Shown here piece by piece: positions 3,836 to 42,260 of a stretch of DNA of 42,260 nt (positions are counted from its first letter, which is position 1; the number at the start of each line of letters is the position of its first letter). The stretch is from an uncultured Planctomycetia bacterium. GTDB lineage: Bacteria > Omnitrophota > Gorgyraeia > 1-14-0-20-64-10. Under the pieces are notes generated by a model that did no database searches, was not told where the DNA came from, and worked only from the letters and a program-made list of their open reading frames with translations. The stretch spans positions 1 through 42,260 of the forward strand of contig CAYJTC010000002.1 of assembly GCA_964372955.1 (NCBI GenBank). Direction: 5' to 3'. The position numbers were made by a program, and so were the translations under genes.

Positions 3836-5193
3836 GGCTTTCGCCCCTCCTCCGAAAGTTCGTGCTGCTCCCGCAGGGGGATTCCCACCGCCTGCTCGAG
3901 CATGACCAGATGCTGTTCCAAAAGGGCCAGGTGCTGGTAGTAGGTCCGATGCCGTTGGGAAAGCTCCCGCTGCGCCTCCAGCAGATCACCCAGTGGAGCC
4001 GTCCCGGCTCGATAGGAAGCCAGCAGGGAGGAGACCCGTTGGCGGTCCAGCGGAATGAGCCCCTCCTGGCAAAGCTTCGCCGTGGCAAAAATCGCCTGGG
4101 CTTCCTGCCAATGTTCATGGATCCGGCGGGCGATCTGGTTGCGGGCCCCCTGGTAGGCGGCCTCGGTCGATTCCTTGTCGTACAGGGCGGCGCGGACCCC
4201 ATACTTCTGTTTGGTCCAGAACCAGAACGGCAGGACCAGCGCCAAGGTCAGATCCCACGGCCCCATCGGCCCCATCGCCGGATCCCGCAGCTCCACCATC
4301 GTCTCTAAGTCCGGCAGCAGCTCCCGCTTGGCCAGACGGTGGGCGGCCTGCGCCCGCTCCGCCGAATATCTAAAAGCCAGCAGCTCCGGCTGGTTCTCCT
4401 CCGCCTGGGTCAGAAGCTCCTCAGGCCCGGAAGGCACCTCCAGCAGGCTTAAAGGGCCTGGCGGGCCCATCGGGGCTCCGGCCGGCCGGTTCAGGAGGTG
4501 ATTCAGATGCGCCCAGGCCGCTTTGCGGCGGTGCTCCAGGACGGTCAGCTCGTTTTCGGCCTTCAGGCGTTCCGTCTGAACCTGCAGAAGCTCCGGTTGG
4601 CTGAGCGTTCCGGCCGCGTACCGGGCCCGCGCGGTGGCATCGGCCTGCTCAAACAAAAGGATCTGCTCCCGCTGAATCTCCATCTCCCGGTCCAACAAGA
4701 ACAGGTCGTAGTAGCCGGACTTCAGCTCGCTCAAAATCTCCCATTCCCTTTGCTTGAACATCGCCCCGGCCATCTGCGCCTCCTTGACCGCCACCTGCCC
4801 TTTGAGGGAAAGCTTGCCGGGGAAAGGCAGGGACTGAATCAGGGAGTAAAGGATCGTCGCCTGGTTGAGCTTCACGGTGCCCCGCGGGATCTCCTCGAAC
4901 TCCACCCCGATCCTGGGAGCCGGCAGCCCTTTGGCCTGCGGGATCCTCTCCTGCGCGGCCTCCCAGCGCTTCCGAGCGGCCCGCAGGTCCGGGTTGACTC
5001 GCCGGGCCTCTTCCAGCAGAGGAGCCAAGGAAAGGACCCCTGCCCCGTCGGCCGCAAGGGTGGGTGAAGGGTGAAGGGTGAAGGGTGAAAAAGAAAATGC
5101 CATGATGAGAAACCAGGAGACTCTCGAAAATTTCCCGTTCTTGGCCTTCACCTTACACCTTCGACCCTTCACCGTTTTTCCACTAGGGCACAT
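3832..5193 (-). CDS. Outer-membrane efflux factor, TolC/CzcC/CusC family
   Basis: 453-aa ORF with the two-repeat OMF pattern (LSLAPLLEEARRVNPDLRAARKRWEAAQERI and LTQAEENQPELLAFRYSAERAQAAHRLAKRELLPDL). First gene of the C-B-A order. The start is uncertain. ATG 5193 overlaps the upstream gene by 25 nt. In-frame GTG 5151 (MKAKNGKFSRVSWFLIMAFSFSPFTLHPSPTLAA|DG) and ATG 5103 are alternatives. Confidence 0.85.
   Translation of the reverse strand: MCPSGKTVKGRRCKVKAKNGKFSRVSWFLIMAFSFSPFTLHPSPTLAADGAGVLSLAPLLEEARRVNPDLRAARKRWEAAQERIPQAKGLPAPRIGVEFEEIPRGTVKLNQATILYSLIQSLPFPGKLSLKGQVAVKEAQMAGAMFKQREWEILSELKSGYYDLFLLDREMEIQREQILLFEQADATARARYAAGTLSQPELLQVQTERLKAENELTVLEHRRKAAWAHLNHLLNRPAGAPMGPPGPLSLLEVPSGPEELLTQAEENQPELLAFRYSAERAQAAHRLAKRELLPDLETMVELRDPAMGPMGPWDLTLALVLPFWFWTKQKYGVRAALYDKESTEAAYQGARNQIARRIHEHWQEAQAIFATAKLCQEGLIPLDRQRVSSLLASYRAGTAPLGDLLEAQRELSQRHRTYYQHLALLEQHLVMLEQAVGIPLREQHELSEEGRKP
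5056..5173. repeat. Inverted arrays of heptanucleotide repeats bracketing the OMF gene 5' end
   Basis: + strand 5056..5090 is AAGGGTG followed by (GGGTGAA)x4. + strand 5145..5173 is CCTTCACCTTACACCTTCGACCCTTCACC, degenerate complements of the same 7-mer. The two arms flank a spacer of about 54 nt that contains the ATG at 5103. Confidence 0.9.
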
Positions 5194-6160: not shown

Positions 6161-6274
6161 CGACTCATGCAAACTGACCCGTTCACCCTGAGCCTGTCGA
6201 AGGGTGAACGGCGATGTTCGTGCTTCGACCCTTCGACTTTGCTCAGGATCAGCACGAACGGTTTTGCATGACTC
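6161..6274. repeat. About 115-bp nested palindromic element (three-way structure) between the ECF sigma and anti-sigma genes
   Basis: Outer stem GACTCATGCAAA (6162..6173) / TTTGCATGACTC (6263..6274), one mismatch. Inner hairpin 1: GTTCACCC (6181..6188) / GGGTGAAC (6202..6209). Inner hairpin 2: GTTCGTGCT (6216..6224) / AGCACGAAC (6251..6259). Translations (PFTLSLSKGE.., ..FDRLRVNG..) resemble the pseudo-peptides I associate with widespread intergenic repeats in environmental genomes. Confidence 0.75.
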
Positions 6275-8744: not shown

Positions 8745-9535
8745 TAAGACGGTGAATAGTGAATCGTGGATAGTGAATCGATCGGCTTCTCTTTTTTGAG
8801 AGCCTTGGGCAGGATCACCACTTCCACGCGGCGGTTTTGGCGGCGGCCCTCCGGGGTATCGTTGGAGGCCACCGGATGGAACTCCCCGACCCCAACCGCC
8901 CTCAGGCGGGCCGGCTCAACCGCTTGCTGATCGATAAAATGGTGAACCACCGCCAGCGCCCGGGCAGTGGAGAGCTCCCAGTTGGACCTCCATCCGGAAT
9001 ACCGGATCGGCTCGTTATCGGTGTGCCCCTCCACCGCCACCGGGGAGTCCGGAACCGTTTCTTTGAGAACCGCGGCCACCTTTTCCAGAGTTTGGGCCCC
9101 CTCCTCTTTAACCAGCGCCTTGCCGGAATCGAAGAAGATCTCATCCAGGAAGGTCAGCACCAGCCCCCGCTCCGTCATCTCCAGCTTGGCCCGGGCCTCC
9201 CCCAACTCCTTCTTCAAGCTTTCGGCCAACTCCTCCTGGGCGTCAAGCAGCTCCTGGTTCTCCCGGGATTTCTGCTCGACCACCTGCGCGACCTGTCGGG
9301 TTTGCTCCTCCTGGAGCCGGCCGATCTGCGTCAGCAGATCCCGGCGGGATTGCTCGGCCTGGCTCAGCCGGCCTTTGAGCCGCTCCACCTCGGTCTCCAG
9401 GCCCTGCATTCGGGCCGACTTCCAGCCCCAGGAACAGCCGGTGAGAAGCAGGGAAAAGAGGGGAAACAGGGAGAACAGGGGAAACAGGGAAAACAGGTTT
9501 CCCCTGATTCCCCTGCCTCCCCTATTCACCCTCAT
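8744..9535 (-). CDS. OmpA/MotB-family lipoprotein with coiled-coil linker
   Basis: 263 aa. Lipobox LLLTGC. Coiled coil (LETEVERLKGRLSQAEQSRRDLLTQIGRLQEEQ). OmpA-C domain (VEGHTDNEPIRYSGWRSNWELSTARALAVVHHF, RRQNRRVEVVIL). ATGA overlap with the upstream MBL gene at 9532..9535. Confidence 0.9.
   Translation of the reverse strand: MRVNRGGRGIRGNLFSLFPLFSLFPLFSLLLTGCSWGWKSARMQGLETEVERLKGRLSQAEQSRRDLLTQIGRLQEEQTRQVAQVVEQKSRENQELLDAQEELAESLKKELGEARAKLEMTERGLVLTFLDEIFFDSGKALVKEEGAQTLEKVAAVLKETVPDSPVAVEGHTDNEPIRYSGWRSNWELSTARALAVVHHFIDQQAVEPARLRAVGVGEFHPVASNDTPEGRRQNRRVEVVILPKALKKEKPIDSLSTIHYSPS
8751..8780. repeat. Heptanucleotide tract in the last codons of the OmpA-like gene
   Basis: GGTGAAT AGTGAAT CGTGGAT AGTGAAT CG. 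Period 7. Immediately upstream, in mRNA sense, of the ThrC-like start codon. Confidence 0.8.
9448..9535. repeat. Inverted arrays of 9-bp repeats encoding the OmpA-like signal peptide
   Basis: + strand 9448..9497: GCAGGGAAAAGAGGGGAAACAGGGAGAACAGGGGAAACAGGGAAAACAGG. + strand 9498..9535 is the complementary type: TTTCCCCTGATTCCCCTGCCTCCCCTATTCACCCTCAT. In mRNA sense the G-rich arm gives MRVNRGGRGIRGN and the C-rich arm gives LFSLFPLFSLFPLFSLLL. Confidence 0.9.
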
Positions 9536-10239
9536 TCCCCTCTTGCCCCTTCCTTGCGCAGGATCTCGACCATCTTTCCCTTGGCCAGGCTCTCGAACCG
9601 CTTGGCGTCGGCCACCGTTCCCACGACAGAGCCGTAATGCATCGGCACATACACCTTAGCCGCAATGGCCCCCGCGGCTTTCGCCGCTTCCTCGGCGGTC
9701 ATCACGTAGGTGCCGCTGACCGGCAGAAGGGCCACATCCACTTTGATCTGTTTCATCTCCGGGATGAAATCGGTGTCGCCGGCATGGTAAAAACGAGTTC
9801 CGTCAACCTCCAGGATGAAGCCGACCCAGCCGTTTTCCTTGAGATGGAACATCTTGTTGGCGTTGTAGGCCGGCACCGCCTCGATTTGAACCTTCTTCAA
9901 GGTCAAGACATCCCCCGGCTTGACCGGATGAATCTTCCCCGGAACTCGGGCCTGCTCCAGCTTCGCCACAGCTCCTGTGACGGTGACGATCACCGTGTCG
10001 GCCTTGGCCACCTTGATCACGTCCGGCGGGGAGAGGTGGTCGAAGTGAGGATGGGTGATCAAAATCAGGTCCGCGTCGTGCGGCTCCCCCTCGATCTGCC
10101 AAGGGTCGAAATAGATCGTCACCTCCGCTCCGACTAGCTTGAAGGCGGCGTGCCCCAGCCAGGTTAAACCCCGGGTATAAGAGGAAGCCGGCATCTCCAC
10201 AGCGCTAAAAGCGGTCGTGAGTCGTGAGTCATGGGTCAT
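9532..10239 (-). CDS. MBL-fold metallo-hydrolase (UPF0173-like)
   Basis: Core LTWLGHAAFKLVGAEVTIYFDPWQIEGEPHDADLILITHPHFDHLSPPDV, and later YHAGDTDFIPEM and LLPVSGTYVMTAEEAAKAA. The start is uncertain. ATG 10239 is conservative. ATG 10371 would add a hydrophobic signal-like stretch (RRGLFFLGFLLLL) but would translate a REP hairpin. The track start 10482 overlaps the giant ORF end. Confidence 0.85.
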   Translation of the reverse strand: MTHDSRLTTAFSAVEMPASSYTRGLTWLGHAAFKLVGAEVTIYFDPWQIEGEPHDADLILITHPHFDHLSPPDVIKVAKADTVIVTVTGAVAKLEQARVPGKIHPVKPGDVLTLKKVQIEAVPAYNANKMFHLKENGWVGFILEVDGTRFYHAGDTDFIPEMKQIKVDVALLPVSGTYVMTAEEAAKAAGAIAAKVYVPMHYGSVVGTVADAKRFESLAKGKMVEILRKEGARGE

Positions 10240-10243
10240 GAGT
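10214..10243. repeat. Heptanucleotide tract at the MBL gene 5' end
   Basis: GTCGTGA GTCGTGA GTCATGG GTCATGA GT. Period 7. No inverted partner seen. Confidence 0.8.
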
Positions 10244-10294
10244 AAAAGCAAAAATCCAAGGAAAAACAGGCCTCTTCGATGGAAAGGCAGATCT

Positions 10295-10351
10295 AAAGGG
10301 GTCAGACCCCTGTGAAACTCCGTTTTACCTGTAAGGGGTCTGACCCCTTTT
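10295..10351. repeat. REP-like hairpin, GGGGTCAG family
   Basis: AAAGGGGTCAGACCCCT (10295..10311) and AGGGGTCTGACCCCTTT (10334..10350) form a perfect 17-bp stem with a 22-nt loop, 52 nt downstream of the giant ORF-B stop. Confidence 0.85.
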
Positions 10352-10402
10352 GAGATGGGGTGCCGATCCATGGAGGCCAGTATAGCAAAAGAAGGGTGGG
10401 GT

Positions 10403-13400
10403 TTACAGGTAGAGTTCGGGCTGGCGCTCGAGCCGCTTCTGCCAGGTCCGGAAGGAGACGTCCTCGATCTCCAGGAAATCACCCAGCCCGCTCAGGCCCG
10501 AAGGGGTCCAGATGGTCAGGACATCCAGGCCGCGGCCGATGGCGTCCACTTGCATCTTGGTGATCACATCCGACGGGTCTTTATCGGCATAGGGAGGGCT
10601 TTTCAGATTGATGATTTTCGCCGCCAGGCCGGTGTCCTTTAGCCAGCCCTCAATCTGCCCGGCGTGGTGGACATGCTCGGCGAAGATCACCAGGTTGATC
10701 TGCTCGCCGGGGACCGGCTTCAGCTGAGCCAGGCCCTGAAGCACCTCCTCGGTGGCCACCTCCGGCCCCAGGAAGATCACCTTCCCCGCCGTCACGCCGG
10801 GCTTCAGCCGGATTTGAAGCTCCTCAAGCCCGGCCGTAGCAGGTTGGGCTTTAACCCGGGCCTGAGCGAGAGCTTTCGGATACCATTCCTCGTCAACCAG
10901 CTTGCGAAGGGCTTCCGCCACTTGTTTGGCGCGCGCTCCTTGGCCTTCGGTGGCAATGCGCAACATCCCCTCTGTCAAAGAACCTCTGAGCCAGACGAAC
11001 GCCTTCCCGCCGTCCAGCTCCAACTCCATAATCCATCCTCCCATACCGAAGGGAGTCCCATTCTCGCTGGGCAAGGTCAAACCGGCTCCCGCCGGATCGG
11101 CCGGACCATAAGCGGGAGAGAGACCGGTTTCCGAGTCGTAAACAATCCGGTAATCGGCCGTAGGATGCACCGATGTCCCGTCCGCCAGGATGAGTCCCTC
11201 TTTCTGGAGTCGATCCCGCAGGTTTTCCTTCCACAGGGTTTCCCAAGCCCGTTTGAAAGGGATCATGAGCGCCTCCGGAACCTCTCCCTGTGCTCCCTGA
11301 TCGCGGATCGGGGTGGAGAAACGCCAGCTTCCCTCGCTCCGGTCTCCCGGCAGGCTCCCGAGAATATCCAACAGAGTGGGCACGGCAGGCACTTCTACTG
11401 GAGGAACGCCGTTGGGTACCGCGGCGTTTCTGGCTTGGAGCCAACTTCGCGCCCATTCCGGATCGGTGGCCACCATCCCTAGAAATAGAGCGGTCATCGC
11501 CCCGTTGCGGCTGGTATCCCCCAAAAACTGAGCGCTCTCTCCCCGGAATACCGTGCCGCCGTTGGCTCCTTCGATTCCAAGAACCACCCGATAAGTAGGG
11601 CGGCCTCCGGCGTCCTTCTGTGCCTCCAGCTTCCTCATCTTCTCCAAGACGTTGACCTCTCCCACCTCCACTGGGAACACCTCAGCCCCAAAGGCCTTGG
11701 CGATTTCCAAAACCCGTTTGGAGGTGGCGCTGTGAGCGACGACGGCCAATTTTGAAGCATCCCCCGCCGGTCGAGCGCGGGCGGCTCTGGCTAAGCCCAA
11801 AGCCATGTTCATCGCGGCCACCTCTTGGGGATTGGGCTCAACGGCCTGACCGGTCTTGGGATCCAGAAGGAGCGTGTTCGCCCGGTCGGCGTCGTAATCG
11901 GTGATGATGGCGAAATGGGCTTGGGCTTCTTTCAGCACCCTCTCAGCATCGGCCAACGCGTTCCCCTTCTCTGGATCGTTCACCGGCTCCAGGATATGCT
12001 GGGGCTGTCCTACAACATGGTTGATCTCGATCAGATCAAACCCCATCCTTTCTAGGAATTCCGCGTAATACCCGGTTGCCGCCCCTCCATTAGGATCAAC
12101 CACAATCCGGACCCGTTTGGCTTTCTCTCGAAATCCCTGGAACTCCTCCTCCTGTTCCAAACCCCACATCTGCCGAGCCTCTTTGACAACCTGCCCCAGA
12201 ATCTTCTCCCGAGAGACCGTTTCAAGTCTGCCGACGGGCACGGCGTTCAAGCGCTGGACAAATTCCTGTGCCTGCTCAGGAGACGCCCCCGCCTGCGCGG
12301 CCCACCGGCGGAATTGGTCGACGACACTCTTCATCTGGCGCGAGGGAAGCAGGATCCCTCCTTCCACCAGACTTCCCGCGGGTTCGGTGGCGGCTGTTGG
12401 GTATTTTACGCCGTTCCATCTTAAAGGATTGTGGCTGGCAGTGATGATGCCCCCTCCATGCGCTTCCACCAAGCGCACTAGACTCTCAGAGAGGGGGGTG
12501 GGAAGGATTCCCCCCTCGACTTCAACGAACCGGACCTTGACGTTGAACTCCTGGGCTGCGACCGAAATCCCCCGCATGTGGGCCTCCTGGATGGCCCTGC
12601 CGGTTGGACGGGGATCCCGCCCAAAGATGAAGGTAAACTCCGAACGGCCGGAAAATTTCTCAATCTGGAGTTTGGCGAAAAGGTACCCGTATCGCGCGAA
12701 GATCAGCTTCTGCGCGGGGGAAAGCTTCACATCCGCCAGCGGAGCCAAAATGGGAGGGTCGACGTTCGGGCCCAAATCGGCCCGCACACCGGAGAAGGAC
12801 TGGATCAGTGTCCTGTCCGGATCAGTCACCTCGGCCCACTTGGACCAATCGATGGGGCCTAGCCATTCCTCCGGGCCGGCCACAACCTCGCTTTGCGGAT
12901 GGACGAAGACGGCGAACTCCCCTTCGAAACCCATCTTTGAACGAACGACGGTGACATTCCCTCCGAGGGACTGTTGGATCGCCTCCAGGAAGATATCCGG
13001 CTTTCCACTTTCCTCAGGAGGCAGTCCCCAGAGCTGGCCAATCGATCCGGCCAAGACAATCGGCCCCTGCGTGAAGGGCTGCCCGGCGTAGGCGTCCAGG
13101 TAAACCCGCAGGACCTGGCCCAGCTCGGTTCCAACCTGCTCCAGGAACTGGCGGGCCAGTCTGCCGTGGATCGTTGAATCGTTCAAAGCTCTCTGGGTTA
13201 TCCCCTGGAGAACGATCAGCTGCAGCTTCTCGTCCGCCAAGATCGGCCGGTGGGCGCCGGGAAGATCATCCTCAGTCAGATTTTGGGTCACCGGACCACC
13301 GAATAATCGGTCAATCTCTGCATCGGACAGACGGTACAAATCATTGTTTCTCAGGAATTCAATGGTGCGGGCCGCAAGCCACGGCCCTCCAAACTCCTTC

Positions 13401-38947: not shown

Positions 38948-39009
38948 CAAAAGGGGTCAGGCACTTTTTGACAGCCTCTAACCGGGTTGTCATAAAGTGC
39001 CTGACCCCT
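38948..39009. repeat. REP-like hairpin, GGGGTCAG family
   Basis: AGGGGTCAGGCACTTT (38952..38967) pairs with AAAGTGCCTGACCCCT (38994..39009). The right arm encodes the last residues (GSGTL*) of the upstream gene. The first 25 nt are identical to 5659..5683. Confidence 0.85.
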
Positions 39010-41269
39010 CCTCCATTTTGAAGAGGCGCATCTGGATCCAGGAGAAGCACATGGTGATCAGGAACAGGATGTAGCCGACCGCCGCGGCCCGGCCCATGTC
39101 GAACCGGTGGAAGCCGGTCTCATAGAGGTACCAGACCACCGTCGTGGTGGCCCCCAGGGGCCCGCCCTGGGTCATGGCGAAGATCTCCGGAAAAACCTGG
39201 AAGGTGTGGATCGTGTTGATCACCGTGGCCAGCAGGATGATCGGCTTGAGCTGCGGCAGGGTGATGTGGCGGAATTTCTGCCACTCGTTGGCCCCGTCGA
39301 TGGAGGCCGCCTCGTAAAGCTCAATGGGGATCGTCTGCAGGCCGGCCAGGAACAGGACCATGTAGTAGCCGAAGCTGGCCCAGACGTTCATCATCATGAT
39401 CGCCGGCAGGGCCCACTTCGTGTTGAGCAGCCAGCTGGGAGTGGGAACCGGCAGGTGCAGCCACTCCAGGGCCCGGTTGACCAGCCCATCGGGCGCGTAG
39501 AGATAGGTGAAGATCGTGGCGATCACGATCACCGAGGTGGCCACCGGCAGGAACAGCCCCGCCTGGTAAAGCTGCTTGAAGGGAACCTTGATGTTGATCA
39601 GGACCGCCGCGAACAGGGCCAGCGCCATGGTCGGGGGGATCGTTCCGGCGGCGAAGAAGCAGGTGTGCCACAAAGCGCTGAGGAAATCGGGCTCCTGGAG
39701 CACCTCCACGAAATTGCGCAACCCCACGAAGGCCATCTCGGAGCTGAGCAGGTTGTACCTGGAAAAGCTTAAGATCAGGGAATGCAGGAGCGGGATCAGA
39801 CTGAATCCCAGGAAGGTGATCAGCCACGGGGCCAGAAAGGTCAGGCTGATCCCGATGCTGGAGACCGACAGCCGGGGGCCGGCGGCCGGCCCCTTGCGCC
39901 GCTTGAAAACCGAGGCGGCGATGATCCCGCCGGCTAGCAGAAGCAGGAATCCGGCGAAAACGATCGTGTCGGTCAGGCGGCCCCGGACCTCGGAGGTCTG
40001 GAGAACCGAATTGATCGCAGCGGTCGTCTCCTTGAGCTGGGCATCCGGGTCGGCGCCGTTTAAGATCACCTCCTCCACCATCCGGGTGATCCGCTCCTGC
40101 ATCCGGACCCAGCCCGGGTGGGCCGGCGGAGCCACCGCGTACTGGACCTGCTCGAAGACCAGCCGCTGTTCCGGGTGGCTCCTGTAGTAGGGGTGCTGGA
40201 TCGCCGACTTGGCCGTGGGGACGATGTTCCGCTGGGCCTCGACGATCGCCATCGCCTGCTCCTCGCCAACCAGGAACAGGATCAGCTTGAGGGCCTCTTC
40301 CGGGTGCTTGGAGTTCTTCAGAAGCACCAGGATCTCCCCGCCGGCGAAGGAGGCCGGAGTCCCCCTTCCTGCGGCCGGCCTGGGCAGGAGGCCCACGCCG
40401 TAGTTCAAGGTGGGGTTCATCCGTGGAATCAGGGAAAAGTTCCAGGATCCCGAAATCTGGATCCCCAGCCGGCCCTCGGCGAAAAGCTGATTCACCTGCG
40501 CCTGGCGTTCCACCAGGGCGAACGGTTTGAGCGAGCGGTAAAAGGCGAGGGCTTCTTGAACGGGGGGCTGGTCCAGCAGGCAGCGCTGCCAGGAATCGTC
40601 CAGAATCTGACCGCCGTTGCTCCACACGAAAGGAAGAAACTCCTGCCAGGGAGCGTAGGGCTCCGCCACATGCAGGCCGATCCCGTAGATGTCGGGGCCT
40701 AAGGCGTCCACGGCCTGGGCCGCCTGCCTGAGCTCTTCCCAGGTGGTCGGAGGCCGATCCGGGTTCAGGCCCGCCTGCGCGAAAAGGGCCCGGTTGTAGA
40801 ACAGGATCCGGGTTCCGGCCAGCCAAGGTACGCCGTAGACTCGGTCCCGGAAAGTGGCCGGATCCCAGAGCAGATACTGGTCCCGGATCGGAGCCACCGA
40901 TTCGGTCAGATCCCGCAGAACCCCGGTGGAGGAGAATTGGGGGACCCAATCGGTCCCCAGCTCGCAGACGTCCGGCGCGTTGTCGGCGGCGATTGAGATA
41001 ATCACCTTGTCCAGCCCGTAATCCCAGGAAAGCTGCTGGAACCGGACCTTGATTCCCGGGTTCTGCCGCTCGAATTTGTCCAGCAGGGAGCGCATCAGCT
41101 CCTCGCCGACCGACAGCTCCCAGAAATCCAGCGTCACCGTCTCCGTCGCAAAAACGGGTGGAGGGTGCAGGGTGCAGGGTGCAGACGAATAAAGAAGGGC
41201 GAGAGCGAGCATCCATCCCTTTAAGGTTCCCCACCCTCGACCCTTCACCCTACACCGACTGGTATTCAT
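38990..41269 (-). CDS. Fusion protein: family-1 extracellular solute-binding protein plus MalF-type ABC permease
   Basis: 759 aa. The N-terminal ~430 aa is SBP-like (TLDFWELSVGEELMRSLLDKFERQNPGIKVRFQQLSWDYGLDKVIISIAADNAPDV, VPWLAGTRILFYNRALF). A TM segment follows (IVFAGFLLLLAGGIIAASVF), then a 6-TM permease with EAA loop (LYEAASIDGANEWQKFRHITLPQLKP). The start ATG 41269 is supported by an abutting promoter. ATG 41215 (MLALALLYSS) is the alternative. Confidence 0.9.
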   Translation of the reverse strand: MNTSRCRVKGRGWGTLKGWMLALALLYSSAPCTLHPPPVFATETVTLDFWELSVGEELMRSLLDKFERQNPGIKVRFQQLSWDYGLDKVIISIAADNAPDVCELGTDWVPQFSSTGVLRDLTESVAPIRDQYLLWDPATFRDRVYGVPWLAGTRILFYNRALFAQAGLNPDRPPTTWEELRQAAQAVDALGPDIYGIGLHVAEPYAPWQEFLPFVWSNGGQILDDSWQRCLLDQPPVQEALAFYRSLKPFALVERQAQVNQLFAEGRLGIQISGSWNFSLIPRMNPTLNYGVGLLPRPAAGRGTPASFAGGEILVLLKNSKHPEEALKLILFLVGEEQAMAIVEAQRNIVPTAKSAIQHPYYRSHPEQRLVFEQVQYAVAPPAHPGWVRMQERITRMVEEVILNGADPDAQLKETTAAINSVLQTSEVRGRLTDTIVFAGFLLLLAGGIIAASVFKRRKGPAAGPRLSVSSIGISLTFLAPWLITFLGFSLIPLLHSLILSFSRYNLLSSEMAFVGLRNFVEVLQEPDFLSALWHTCFFAAGTIPPTMALALFAAVLINIKVPFKQLYQAGLFLPVATSVIVIATIFTYLYAPDGLVNRALEWLHLPVPTPSWLLNTKWALPAIMMMNVWASFGYYMVLFLAGLQTIPIELYEAASIDGANEWQKFRHITLPQLKPIILLATVINTIHTFQVFPEIFAMTQGGPLGATTTVVWYLYETGFHRFDMGRAAAVGYILFLITMCFSWIQMRLFKMEEGSGTL
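41156..41256. repeat. Inverted arrays of heptanucleotide repeats across the SBP-permease gene 5' end
   Basis: + strand 41156..41184: GGGTGGA GGGTGCA GGGTGCA GGGTGCA G. + strand 41229..41256: CCCCACCCTCGACCCTTCACCCTACACC, complements of GGGTGNA units. A 44-nt spacer contains ATG 41215. Shares the core GGTGAAGGGTCGA with the 5145..5173 arm. Confidence 0.9.
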
Positions 41270-41278
41270 AGACGCATT

Positions 41279-41307
41279 AGTCTACCGCGGGCCAAAAGGA
41301 TTGACAA
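41279..41307 (-). promoter_or_regulatory. Sigma70-type promoter abutting the SBP-permease start
   Basis: In minus sense: TTGTCA (41307..41302), a 17-nt spacer, TAGACT (41284..41279), then 9 nt before ATG 41269. Confidence 0.5.
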
Positions 41308-41330
41308 GGCGTCGCCGGCCCTCGGATAAT
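41301..41330 (+). promoter_or_regulatory. Near-consensus sigma70-type promoter for the HAD gene, with its -35 overlapping the divergent promoter
   Basis: TTGACA (41301..41306), an 18-nt spacer, GATAAT (41325..41330), then 6 nt before in-frame GTG 41337. The TTG that the ORF track uses as the start is the -35 box itself. Confidence 0.55.
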
Positions 41331-41336
41331 ACCTGC

Positions 41337-42260
<924 letters not shown>

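What the first reader, a model, noticed from the sequence alone, without database searches (positions are those of the whole stretch)
41156..41256. Second inverted heptamer cassette, homologous to the OMF one, forms the 5' end of the SBP-permease mRNA immediately after a promoter
Seen in sequence, in minus (mRNA) sense: AUGAAUACCAGUCGGUGUAGGGUGAAGGGUCGAGGGUGGGGAACC...(44 nt)...CUGCACCCUGCACCCUGCACCCUCCACCC. The G-rich arm shares GGUGAAGGGUCGA with the arm at 5173..5145 and encodes RCRVKGRGWG. The loop encodes the hydrophobic core (MLALALLYSS). The C-rich arm encodes APCTLHPPP. This is again a complete signal peptide from one palindromic cassette.

The -10 box lies 9 nt upstream of ATG 41269. 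The cassette would therefore be at the very 5' end of the transcript, where GGGUGAAGGGUCGAGGGUGGGG fits a canonical RNA G-quadruplex pattern that competes with hairpin formation.

Inference: a mobile or recombinogenic signal-peptide cassette family with regulatory potential. TCGACCCTTC also recurs at 6226..6235 inside the nested palindromic element.
Basis: partly seen in the sequence, partly recalled or inferred. Interest (0 to 1): 0.62.

Follow-up and report, generated by a model that had tools for sequence, protein, structure and literature searches.

The report
Heptamer hairpin encoding a signal peptide
In this uncultured Omnitrophota bacterium, a hairpin-forming pair of 7-base repeat arrays lies just after the promoter of a sugar-transporter gene and is most likely translated as the protein's export signal; this use of such repeats appears to be unpublished, but it is one more local case of a repeat class that is common in this lineage.

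Summary
On the minus strand, a degenerate G-rich heptamer arm (41256-41219) and a near-perfect (TGCACCC)n arm (41194-41157) flank a 24-nt centre. All of it lies inside the first 42 codons of a fused SBP-permease gene.

The promoter claim holds. TTGTCA-N17-TAGACT-N9-ATG is conserved in 13 orthologous loci, which implies a leaderless mRNA starting at ATG 41269.

The cassette is private to this population:
- Orthologues at 76-83% identity have unrelated signal peptides.
- One orthologue carries a different heptamer palindrome in the same slot.
- The slot is enriched for repeat arrays (6 observed, 0.3 expected).

Evidence against a selected regulatory role:
- Strong 5' structure is not conserved across orthologues.
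- The G-quadruplex motif is canonical but loses to the hairpin (-54.7 kcal/mol).
- No copy-number variation appears in contigs from four samples.
- The OMF cassette shares only the arms, not the centre.

The unit (GAAGGGT, the same repeat as GGGTGAA) and the purine-arm-first order match the arrays that flank PF05635 four-helix-bundle genes in 68 of 80 loci across many phyla.

Best reading: a widespread heptamer-hairpin element has been absorbed into a signal peptide.

The parts
41302..41307 (-). -35 hexamer TTGTCA. On the + strand it overlaps TTGACA (41301-41306), the -35 of the divergent HAD-phosphatase promoter.
   Evidence: One search finds 2 promoter-like sites against 0.1 expected. CTTGT-AA is invariant in 12 aligned orthologous loci and is also present in L266.
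41279..41284 (-). -10 hexamer TAGACT, 17 nt after the -35 and 9 nt before the ATG.
   Evidence: T, A and the final T are invariant in alignment A2. The gap from -10 to the start codon is 7-12 nt (mode 9) in the orthologues that keep the TTGTCAA -35.
41267..41269 (-). ATG start codon of the SBP-permease gene, with no Shine-Dalgarno sequence. It is the inferred 5' end of a leaderless mRNA.
   Evidence: Its position relative to the promoter is conserved in orthologues. The automatic gene call (P0001, 740 aa) starts at M20, which leaves no basic n-region.
41144..41269 (-). Signal-peptide coding segment of 42 codons: MNTSRCRVKGRGWGTLKGWMLALALLYSSAPCTLHPPPVFA, with the predicted cut before TETVTLDFWEL.
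   Evidence: The translation is. The mature N-terminus (A/S/T)E.VTL.FWEL aligns with about 90 orthologues that carry ordinary signal peptides. Cleavage is inferred and was not tested.
41219..41256 (-). 5' G-rich arm GGTGTAGGGTGAAGGGTCGAGGGTGGGGAACCTTAAAG, with degenerate heptamers of the GGGTGAA family. It is translated as the basic n-region (RCRVKGRGWGTLK).
   Evidence: A perfect (GGGTGAA)n has a stop in all three frames. Here the two units whose TGA would be in frame read TGT and TGG.
41229..41250 (-). Canonical G-quadruplex motif GGGTGAAGGGTCGAGGGTGGGG on the mRNA strand. A second motif lies on the + strand at 41156-41179.
   Evidence: Eleven of the 16 G4 motifs in the window lie in repeat cassettes. 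The G4 is predicted only in the nascent 62 nt (-18.3 against -9.6 kcal/mol). The full-length fold keeps the hairpin (-54.7).
41195..41218 (-). Centre of the palindrome, GGATGGATGCTCGCTCTCGCCCTT. It encodes most of the hydrophobic core (GWMLALAL). In the minimum-energy fold it partly pairs with the inner G arm.
   Evidence: It has no similarity to the centre of the OMF cassette (p = 0.98).
41157..41194 (-). 3' C-rich arm CTTTATTCGTCTGCACCCTGCACCCTGCACCCTCCACC, with (TGCACCC)x3 plus TCCACCC. It is translated as the end of the h-region and the c-region (LYSSAPCTLHPPP).
   Evidence: (95% matches). (TGCACCC)n and (TTCACCC)n are open in all three frames.
38990..41269 (-). Gene for the fused solute-binding protein and MalF-type permease (759 aa).
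   Evidence: Pfam gives SBP_bac_1 at 1.7e-47 and BPD_transp_1 at 2e-16. One search listed 120 homologues, and 97 relatives from that list were inspected, mostly labelled Omnitrophota.
41301..41330 (+). Divergent promoter TTGACA-N18-GATAAT for the HAD-family phosphatase gene, whose likely GTG start lies 6 nt after the -10.
   Evidence: The ATTATC box is conserved in alignment A2. The sequence was read.
5056..5176 (-). Related cassette at the start of the OMF gene. The G arm is AACGGTGAAGGGTCGAAGGTGTAAGGTGAAGG, the centre is 55 nt, and the C arm is (TTCACCC)x4. The shared GTG AAG GGT CGA is read as VKGR in the same frame as in the SBP gene.
6225..6234 (+). Third copy of TCGACCCTTC, inside the nested palindrome between the sigma and anti-sigma genes.

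Best explanation
The element is a lineage-specific inverted pair of heptamer arrays of the GGGTGAA (= GAAGGGT) family. Its G-rich arm comes first. This is the kind of short-repeat hairpin that is common in Omnitrophota and also occurs between genes in other phyla.

Here it lies inside the coding sequence of a leaderless SBP-permease gene and is translated (inferred, not shown):
- The G arm gives the basic n-region.
- The centre gives the hydrophobic core.
- The C arm gives the Pro/Thr/His-rich c-region, ending in VFA before the mature protein.

A signal peptide needs only charge, then hydrophobicity, then a small-residue cleavage site. A purine-rich arm followed by its complement meets that need, so this slot tolerates and keeps such elements. 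Selection has removed the in-frame TGA codons that the consensus G-arm unit would create. The C arm needs no such editing and stays nearly perfect.

The RNA hairpin, which starts about 13 nt from the 5' end, and the G4 motif follow from the sequence. At most they tune translation or stability. They are not why the element is there.
For: Anatomy and reading frame:
- The arms, centre and translation were confirmed.
- The start codon sits at a conserved distance from a conserved promoter in 13 loci.
- A start at M20 would leave no basic n-region, whereas nearly all orthologues begin MKR or similar.

Lineage specificity:
- Orthologues at 76-83% identity (L001, L002, L003, L017, L266) have the same promoter and mature N-terminus but unrelated signal peptides. 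L021 has a different heptamer palindrome (CAGAAGA/TCTGTTC) in the same slot.
- Relatives in four other metagenomes cover both flanks but give zero depth over 41152-41340.

Arrays favour this slot:
- Six of 29 orthologous signal-peptide segments hold a TRF array, against 0.30 expected (P = 8e-7).
- Of 49 period-7 or period-9 arrays in 509 kb of Omnitrophota DNA, 23 lie in the first 60 codons of a long ORF, against 18.7% of random windows (P = 8e-6).
- Period 7 dominates: 33 arrays, against 8 of period 6 and 5 of period 8.

Translation constraint:
- (GGGTGAA)n has stops in all three frames and (TGCACCC)n has none.
- The G arm is degenerate exactly at the two units where TGA would be in frame, and the C arm matches at 95%.

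The structure is not a conserved need of this gene:
- The median z-score of 29 orthologous 5' segments is -0.01, against -0.15 for internal controls (p = 0.87).

In the same window, a nonamer palindrome encodes an OmpA-like lipoprotein signal peptide ending in the lipobox LTGC.
Against: - No RNA or protein data exist. No RNA run holds the locus. The transcription start, the start codon and the cleavage are therefore all inferred.
- An in-frame GTG at codon 8 or the ATG at codon 20 could be used instead of M1.
- The fold is significantly stable (z = -3.2) and begins close to the start codon of a leaderless mRNA. That placement should affect initiation, so a selected regulatory role cannot be excluded.
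- The open frame through the G arm is partly circular evidence, because the ORF was defined by having no stops.
Confidence: 0.6

Rival explanations
1. The hairpin, or a switch between hairpin and G-quadruplex, is a selected cis-regulatory RNA element at the 5' end of the leaderless mRNA. It would throttle initiation or early elongation, or act with the GUUUUUG that follows the C arm as a translation-sensitive attenuator. Its coding role would be secondary.
For: - The fold is stable (-60.3 kcal/mol, z = -3.2).
- The stem starts about 13 nt after the A of the AUG of an mRNA that has no leader.
- The G4 motif is canonical and wins in the nascent 62 nt.
- The arms have four units, the number preferred by G4-forming heptamer repeats in Xanthomonas and Nostoc (PMC4692102).
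- A run of five U follows the 3' arm.
Against: - The 5' structure is not conserved in 29 orthologues.
- Close orthologues do without the cassette.
- With G4 allowed, the full-length fold is still the hairpin.
- Cassettes in relatives use units without G-runs.
- The OMF and nonamer cassettes have no U tract after them.
- The terminator scan found none here.
Confidence: 0.15
2. The 100-nt unit is a mobile or gene-converting cassette, like a MITE, or a gene-less relic of the PF05635 four-helix-bundle cassette. It was inserted as a unit at the gene start and brought a ready-made signal peptide.
For: - The cassette is present here and absent in orthologues.
- The 13-mer GGTGAAGGGTCGA is shared with the OMF cassette and is read in the same frame.
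- Other contigs in the same metagenome match the arms and then diverge (loose ends).
- The same unit family and the same purine-arm-first order flank PF05635 genes in 68 of 80 loci from many phyla. Array density is 4.28 per kb near those genes against 0.17 per kb further away.
- Those genes sit in unrelated contexts, such as gap/MFS and type III R-M.
Against: - The centres of the two window cassettes are unrelated (p = 0.98).
- No target-site duplication is visible at the ends.
- The C arms use different units (TGCACCC against TTCACCC).
- No PF05635 gene occurs in the window or in about 500 kb of Omnitrophota loci.
- No transposase or recombinase is linked to it.
Confidence: 0.13
3. Translation starts at ATG 41212 (M20), as the automatic gene call has it. 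The G arm would then be an untranslated 5' leader.
For: - The gene caller chose M20 (P0001, 740 aa).
- AAAGGGA lies 3 nt upstream of that ATG and is a weak Shine-Dalgarno-like motif.
Against: - MLALALLYSS has no basic n-region, unlike about 90 orthologues.
- The ATG at a conserved distance from the -10 box is M1.
- The frame from M1 to M20 is open, although the consensus unit carries stops in all frames.
Confidence: 0.08
4. The heptamer array is a slipped-strand phase-variation switch. Gain or loss of one 7-nt unit shifts the frame and turns the transporter off and on.
For: - The unit length is not a multiple of three.
- Three perfect units plus one variant unit lie in the signal-peptide region, as with the CTCTT repeats of Neisseria opa genes (established knowledge).
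Against: - Contigs from four samples in two studies are identical over 41096-41500, with no indels.
- There are only 3-4 units.
- The gene is a housekeeping-type sugar transporter.
- Assembled contigs hide rare variants, so this test is weak.
Confidence: 0.04

Closest known systems
G-rich heptamer simple-sequence repeats (GGGNATC, GGGGAYT) of Xanthomonas and Nostoc, including 70-75 convergent inverted pairs per Xanthomonas genome (Rehm et al. 2015, PMC4692102)
   Same: - The unit is a G3N4 heptamer.
- Four units are preferred.
- The pairs are convergent, with the G arm first on both strands.
- The authors themselves raised stem-loop against G4 competition.
   Different: - Those repeats are mainly intergenic and under-represented in coding regions. 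Here the pair is translated as a signal peptide.
- The unit sequence differs (GGGTGNA).
- The G arm here is degenerate.
Coding repeats (CTCTT)n in the signal-peptide region of Neisseria opa genes (own knowledge; also named as closest known in earlier notes)
   Same: A tandem repeat whose unit is not a multiple of three lies inside the leader-peptide coding region of an exported protein.
   Different: - The opa repeats are a single direct array with documented copy-number switching.
- Here the element is an inverted pair forming a hairpin, and no length variation was seen in four samples.
Palindromic small mobile elements read in frame: enterobacterial RU-2, which forms part of the predicted signal peptide of YPO1552 (Delihas 2007, PMC2759123), and Rickettsia palindromic elements (cited there)
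   Same: - A hairpin-forming repeat is absorbed into an ORF and supplies a signal-peptide-like segment.
- Orthologues have unrelated signal peptides.
   Different: - RU and RPE elements are fixed-sequence elements of 100-170 bp with many near-identical copies.
- Here the arms are tandem heptamers, and the two copies in the window share only the arms.
TAACTGA heptamer direct repeats of Beggiatoaceae, cyanobacteria and Bacteroidetes (MacGregor 2015, PMC4679880)
   Same: - The heptamer arrays lie next to start codons.
- The forward orientation has stops in all three frames and the reverse orientation is translatable. GGGTGAA and TTCACCC behave the same way.
   Different: - TAACTGA arrays are direct repeats, not inverted ones, and are almost all intergenic.
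- No use in a signal peptide was described for them.
PF05635 (23S rRNA intervening-sequence protein, four-helix bundle, Avd-like) gene cassettes
   Same: - The arms are heptamer arrays whose commonest unit is GAAGGGT, the same repeat as GGGTGAA.
- The purine arm is upstream and the pyrimidine arm downstream.
   Different: - The window element has a 24-nt centre and no gene.
- No PF05635 gene was found in the Omnitrophota DNA in hand.
- The 10 loci tested are not inside rRNA genes.

Membership tests
Sec-type (signal peptidase I) signal peptide | Basic n-region at the N-terminus | tested here: met
   R5, R7, K9, R11 and K17 are encoded by the G arm.
Sec-type (signal peptidase I) signal peptide | Hydrophobic h-region of about 7-15 residues, followed by a c-region with small residues at positions -3 and -1 | tested here: met
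   WMLALALLY is followed by SSAPCTLHPPPVFA, with V at -3 and A at -1. The cut aligns with the AxA-type sites of orthologues just before (A/S/T)E.VTL.FWEL. No signal-peptide predictor was available.
Sec-type (signal peptidase I) signal peptide | Export and cleavage shown experimentally | not testable with these tools
   Needs a PhoA or beta-lactamase fusion, or N-terminal sequencing.
Leaderless mRNA | Start codon within about 12 nt of the -10 box, with no Shine-Dalgarno sequence | tested here: met
   TAGACT-AATGCGTCT-ATG. The gap is 7-12 nt in the orthologues that keep the TTGTCAA -35.
Leaderless mRNA | Mapped 5' end at or next to the AUG | not testable with these tools
   No RNA run holds the locus.
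G-rich heptamer SSR inverted pairs (Rehm et al. 2015) | G3N4 heptamer units, about four per array, in convergent pairs with the G arm first | tested here: met
   All 8 GGGTGNA pairs found in other phyla have the G arm first.
G-rich heptamer SSR inverted pairs (Rehm et al. 2015) | Intergenic location | tested here: not met
   The whole element lies inside codons 5-38 of the gene.
Functional RNA G-quadruplex switch | Four G3+ tracts with loops of 1-7 nt | tested here: met
   GGGTGAAGGGTCGAGGGTGGGG.
Functional RNA G-quadruplex switch | The G4 competes energetically with the alternative fold, and the motif is conserved | tested here: not met
   With G4 allowed, the full-length fold is the hairpin at -54.7 kcal/mol. 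The G4 is predicted only in the first 62 nt. The motif is absent from orthologues.
Phase-variable coding repeat (opa type) | Copy-number differences among strains or reads | tested here: inconclusive
   Contigs are identical in four samples, but assembled contigs drop rare variants.
MITE- or RPE-like mobile palindromic element | Several near-identical full-length copies in the genome, with target-site duplications | tested here: not met
   Within the window only the arms are shared and the centres are unrelated. No duplication is seen at the ends. The rest of the genome could not be searched.
PF05635 four-helix-bundle cassette | Purine-rich heptamer array upstream and its complement downstream, with a GAAGNNN unit family | tested here: met
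   GAAGGGT is the commonest unit (29 of 101 arrays). Of the upstream arrays, 45 of 47 are purine-rich. Of the downstream arrays, 45 of 54 are pyrimidine-rich.
PF05635 four-helix-bundle cassette | A PF05635 gene between the arms | tested here: not met
   The centre is 24 nt. tblastn found no homologue in the window or the Omnitrophota loci.

The most novel reading that the evidence does not exclude
Heptamer-array hairpins of the GAAGNNN family may be the ends, or gene-less derivatives, of a horizontally spreading cassette built around the PF05635 (Avd-like four-helix-bundle) gene. That cassette would seed hairpins at gene boundaries across bacterial phyla.

In Omnitrophota these hairpins would then be repeatedly taken over, in place, as complete export signals, because the purine arm encodes charge and the pyrimidine arm encodes hydrophobicity. 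In leaderless genes such as this one they would also set the 5' structure of the mRNA. A selfish repeat system would thus be a standing source of new and fast-changing signal peptides.
Probability: 0.2. Interest if true: 0.8.

Novelty: new variant of a known kind. Interest (0 to 1): 0.55.

Why it matters
Signal peptides are usually thought to drift by point mutation. Here, and repeatedly in this lineage, a whole export signal is written by a hairpin-forming pair of short tandem repeats. This shows a route by which selfish or slippage-generated DNA becomes coding sequence almost at once.

The route works because a purine-rich arm followed by its complement has the charge-then-hydrophobicity layout of a signal peptide.

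This case adds three things:
- The element can sit directly behind a conserved leaderless promoter, not only at junctions between cistrons.
- The arm that would carry stop codons is edited exactly where those stops would fall in frame.
- The unit family is the one that flanks PF05635 genes in many phyla. This ties two poorly understood features of bacterial genomes together and makes the origin of the repeats testable.

I found no paper describing any of this in the library searched.

Tried and rejected
- **RNA evidence for the transcription start.** No RNA run holds the locus.
- **Phase variation.** Contigs from runs X1-X4 are identical over the cassette. This is a weak test.
- **A conserved 5' hairpin as a requirement of this gene.** Rejected. 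The z-scores of 29 orthologues do not differ from controls.
- **G4 as the dominant fold.** Rejected by folding with quadruplexes allowed.
- **The two window cassettes as copies of one element.** Rejected for the centres.
- **An older C arm shared with the closest orthologues.** L266 has two TTCACCC-like units at the same place. However, lag-7 periodicity in L266, L001 and L009 is no higher than at other lags, so this is inconclusive.
- **PF05635 loci as classical 23S rRNA intervening sequences.** Long cross-phylum DNA alignments of the flanks suggested this. Rfam found no rRNA in 10 loci. The flanks are protein genes, such as type III R-M and gap/MFS.
- **A PF05635 gene in the window or the Omnitrophota loci.** None found.
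- **Inverted array pairs with long spacers in the Omnitrophota loci.** None was informative.
Full report
**What is there**

The window comes from an uncultured Omnitrophota bacterium. The homologues of the gene at 38990..41269(-) are almost all labelled Candidatus Omnitrophica or Omnitrophota. The gene encodes a 759-aa fusion of a family-1 solute-binding protein and a MalF-type permease (SBP_bac_1 at 1.7e-47, BPD_transp_1 at 2e-16).

The repeat structure is as follows:
- TRF finds (GGGTGCA)x4.1 at 41156-41184 with 95% matches.
- The repeat finder finds 38-nt arms at 41157-41194 and 41219-41256, 74% complementary, with a 24-nt centre.
- The 146-nt RNA folds at -60.3 kcal/mol, z = -3.2, and no shuffle out of 200 folds as well.

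The exact 13-mer GGTGAAGGGTCGA occurs only at 41237-41249 and 5161-5173. Both copies are in the 5' arm of a cassette.

**Promoter and start codon**

A consensus scan finds two back-to-back promoters, where 0.1 would be expected by chance:
- TTGTCA-N17-TAGACT on the minus strand (41307..41279).
- TTGACA-N18-GATAAT on the plus strand (41301..41330).

The two share their -35 region.

I fetched 65 loci encoding relatives of the protein and aligned the upstream regions of 12 of them. CTTGT-AA and the T, A and final T of the -10 box are invariant. The ATTATC of the divergent promoter is also kept. The closest orthologue, L266 (83% identity), has the same layout.

In these loci the start codon lies 7-12 nt after the -10 box, most often 9 nt. 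The mRNA is therefore most likely leaderless, and ATG 41269 is the start that matches the orthologues. The automatic gene call began at M20 (P0001, 740 aa). That start would give MLALALLYSS with no basic n-region, whereas nearly all of the 97 inspected orthologues begin MKR or similar.

The transcription start itself is inferred. No RNA run holds the locus.

**How the cassette is read**

From M1 the product is MNTSRCRVKGRGWGTLKGWMLALALLYSSAPCTLHPPPVFA, followed by TETVTLDFWEL. The mature end aligns with the (A/S/T)E.VTL.FWEL that follows the cleavage sites of the orthologues.
- The G arm supplies five basic residues.
- The centre supplies the hydrophobic core.
- The C arm supplies the proline-rich c-region.

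A perfect (GGGTGAA)n has a stop in every frame, whereas (TGCACCC)n and (TTCACCC)n have none. In the G arm, the two units whose TGA would fall in frame read TGT and TGG. The unit whose TGA is out of frame keeps it. The OMF cassette shows the same pattern, and its shared GTG AAG GGT CGA is read as VKGR in the same frame.

This explains why the G arm is degenerate while the C arm is nearly perfect. It is modest evidence that the G arm is translated. It is partly circular, because the ORF was defined by having no stops.

**Comparison with relatives**

Orthologues at 76-83% identity (L001, L002, L003, L017, L266) have unrelated signal-peptide sequences behind the same promoter. L021 (78% identity) carries a quite different heptamer palindrome, (CAGAAGA)n(TCTGTTC)n, in the same slot. 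L005, L024 and L025 carry pyrimidine-rich heptamer arrays there, and L020 a nonamer array.

Six of 29 signal-peptide segments hold a TRF array, against 0.30 expected from the density in the same loci (P = 8e-7). The slot length I used was 3573 nt. My recount gives 3612 nt, which makes no material difference.

Across 509 kb of Omnitrophota DNA:
- Period 7 is the dominant short period, with 33 arrays against 8 of period 6 and 5 of period 8.
- Of 49 period-7 or period-9 arrays, 23 lie in the first 60 codons of an ORF that runs on for at least 150 codons, against 18.7% of random windows (odds ratio 3.8, P = 8e-6).

The loci were chosen around this gene, so six of those 23 arrays come from one slot.

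Metagenomes holding relatives cover both flanks at 82-95% identity but give no depth at all over 41152-41340. In four samples that hold this population, the contig over 41096-41500 is identical. The cassette is therefore fixed in this population and absent from its relatives.

**Is the hairpin or the G4 the point?**

I folded the segment from the start codon to the FWEL motif in 29 orthologues. The median z-score was -0.01, against -0.15 for 142 internal control segments (one-sided Mann-Whitney p = 0.87). Only L021, the window, L002 and L009 are clearly structured. A strong 5' structure is therefore not a conserved need of this gene.

The G-tract motif is canonical. With quadruplexes allowed, the minimum-energy fold of the 132-nt 5' segment is still the hairpin (-54.7 kcal/mol). 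A G4 appears only when the first 62 nt are folded alone (-18.3 against -9.6 kcal/mol). A co-transcriptional G4 is therefore possible, but nothing supports a switch. Cassettes in relatives use units without G-runs.

**Relation to the OMF cassette and to mobility**

The two heptamer cassettes in the window resemble each other in both arms (0 of 500 shuffles reach the score). Their centres do not (p = 0.98). No target-site duplication is visible at the ends. They share a unit family and are not copies of one 100-nt element.

Arrays of (GGGTGNA) with four or more units are widespread in cyanobacteria, Planctomycetota, Gemmatimonadota, Burkholderiales and others. Eight of these arrays have a TNCACCC partner within 1.2 kb, and in all eight the G arm comes first. 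Several are plainly intergenic, with stops in all frames. This is the arrangement described for GGGAATC repeats in Xanthomonas (PMC4692102).

**Link to PF05635 genes**

One of the eight pairs, in Thiohalocapsa sp. ML1 (fetched as both L161 and L186), encloses a 118-aa gene that matches PF05635, the 23S rRNA intervening-sequence protein, at 6.3e-20.

In 80 loci encoding close homologues (59-100% identity, many phyla):
- 68 have a period-7 array within 150 nt of the gene.
- Array density is 4.28 per kb near the gene, against 0.17 per kb more than 500 nt away.
- 45 of 47 upstream arrays are purine-rich, and 45 of 54 downstream arrays are pyrimidine-rich.
- The commonest unit is GAAGGGT, the same repeat as GGGTGAA.

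These loci are not rRNA genes. Rfam found nothing in 10 of them. The neighbouring genes differ from locus to locus: gap and an MFS gene in L186, and type III restriction and modification genes in L234. In L186 the downstream array is read as the N-terminus of the next gene.

No PF05635 homologue occurs in the window or in the Omnitrophota loci. The window's arms therefore belong to the unit family and arm order of a widespread, probably mobile gene cassette. Whether this particular hairpin descends from one is not shown.

**Verdict**

The signal-peptide reading, the start codon and the promoter are supported by comparison with orthologues. Homology to the OMF cassette is limited to the arms. 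The G4 idea and a conserved regulatory role are not supported. Mobility is a lead, not a finding.

In the library searched I found no paper that describes repeat hairpins translated as signal peptides in Omnitrophota, or heptamer arrays flanking PF05635 genes. Earlier notes of this scan report the same class in about 30 genomes. This is therefore one more member of an apparently unpublished class. It adds the leaderless-promoter context, the stop-phase editing of the G arm and an independent check of the PF05635 link.

Noticed in passing
window 41279-41340, both strands: The SBP-permease gene and the divergent HAD-phosphatase gene use back-to-back promoters that share one -35 region (TTGACA/TGTCAA). 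Both start codons lie 6-9 nt after their -10 boxes, so both mRNAs look leaderless. The layout ATTATC...CTTGTCAA...TAGACT is conserved in a dozen Omnitrophota genomes.
   Followed up: partly
L186 (= L161) 990-1900, and L187-L265: Genes for PF05635 four-helix-bundle proteins from many phyla are flanked by heptamer arrays. The purine-rich GAAGNNN array lies upstream and its complement downstream. This holds in 68 of 80 loci, a 25-fold enrichment over the outer flanks. The loci tested are not in rRNA genes. In L186 the downstream array encodes the N-terminus (MAFLSNFKLQTSNF) of the next gene, and the upstream array encodes the last residues of GAPDH.
   Followed up: partly
window 41136-41160 (-): The 3' arm of the hairpin is followed two bases later by GUUUUUG (the codons for V-F). 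The shape resembles an intrinsic terminator about 115 nt into the transcript. The scan tool did not call it, and the other cassettes in the window lack a U tract.
   Followed up: no
window 10214-10245 (-) and 10290-10345 (-): The gene at 9532..10482(-) has a (TCATGAC/TCACGAC)x4 array in its signal peptide (LLLLMTHDSRLTTAFSA). It also has two copies of a GGGGTCAGACCCC palindrome in its n-region. The same peptide motif (LMTQDARLTTAFAA, FLMTAESRLTHPAYA) appears in the signal peptides of SBP-permease orthologues in other genomes (P0017, P0022, L010). One heptamer family thus recurs in the export signals of unrelated proteins in different genomes.
   Followed up: no
L021 10014-10110: A loop-less heptamer palindrome, (CAGAAGA)x5 then (TCTGTTC)x6, encodes the whole signal peptide (MKTEHRRQKSEDRGQKVCSLFSVLCLLFSVF) of the 78%-identical orthologue. 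Its fold z-score is -6.3.
   Followed up: partly
window 9443-9550 (-): A nonamer palindrome encodes the signal peptide of an OmpA-like lipoprotein: MRVNRGGRGIRGN then LFSLFPLFSLFPLFSLLLTGC with a lipobox. Its purine arm also encodes the C-terminus of the upstream gene, with an ATGA stop/start overlap.
   Followed up: partly
run X2, loose end at window 41184: A contig in the same metagenome matches the (GGGTGCA) array and then continues with further GGTGCAA/GGTGCAG units for at least 30 nt. Two other contigs match the G-arm complement and then diverge at 41256/41257. Longer arrays of the same family therefore exist elsewhere in that community.
   Followed up: no
L234 1-2750; also L207, L241, L256, L262: A PF05635 gene sits between the res-like and mod genes of a type III restriction-modification system. 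That system is itself conserved at 65-75% DNA identity across Chloroflexota, Acidobacteriota, Deinococcota and Planctomycetota.
   Followed up: no
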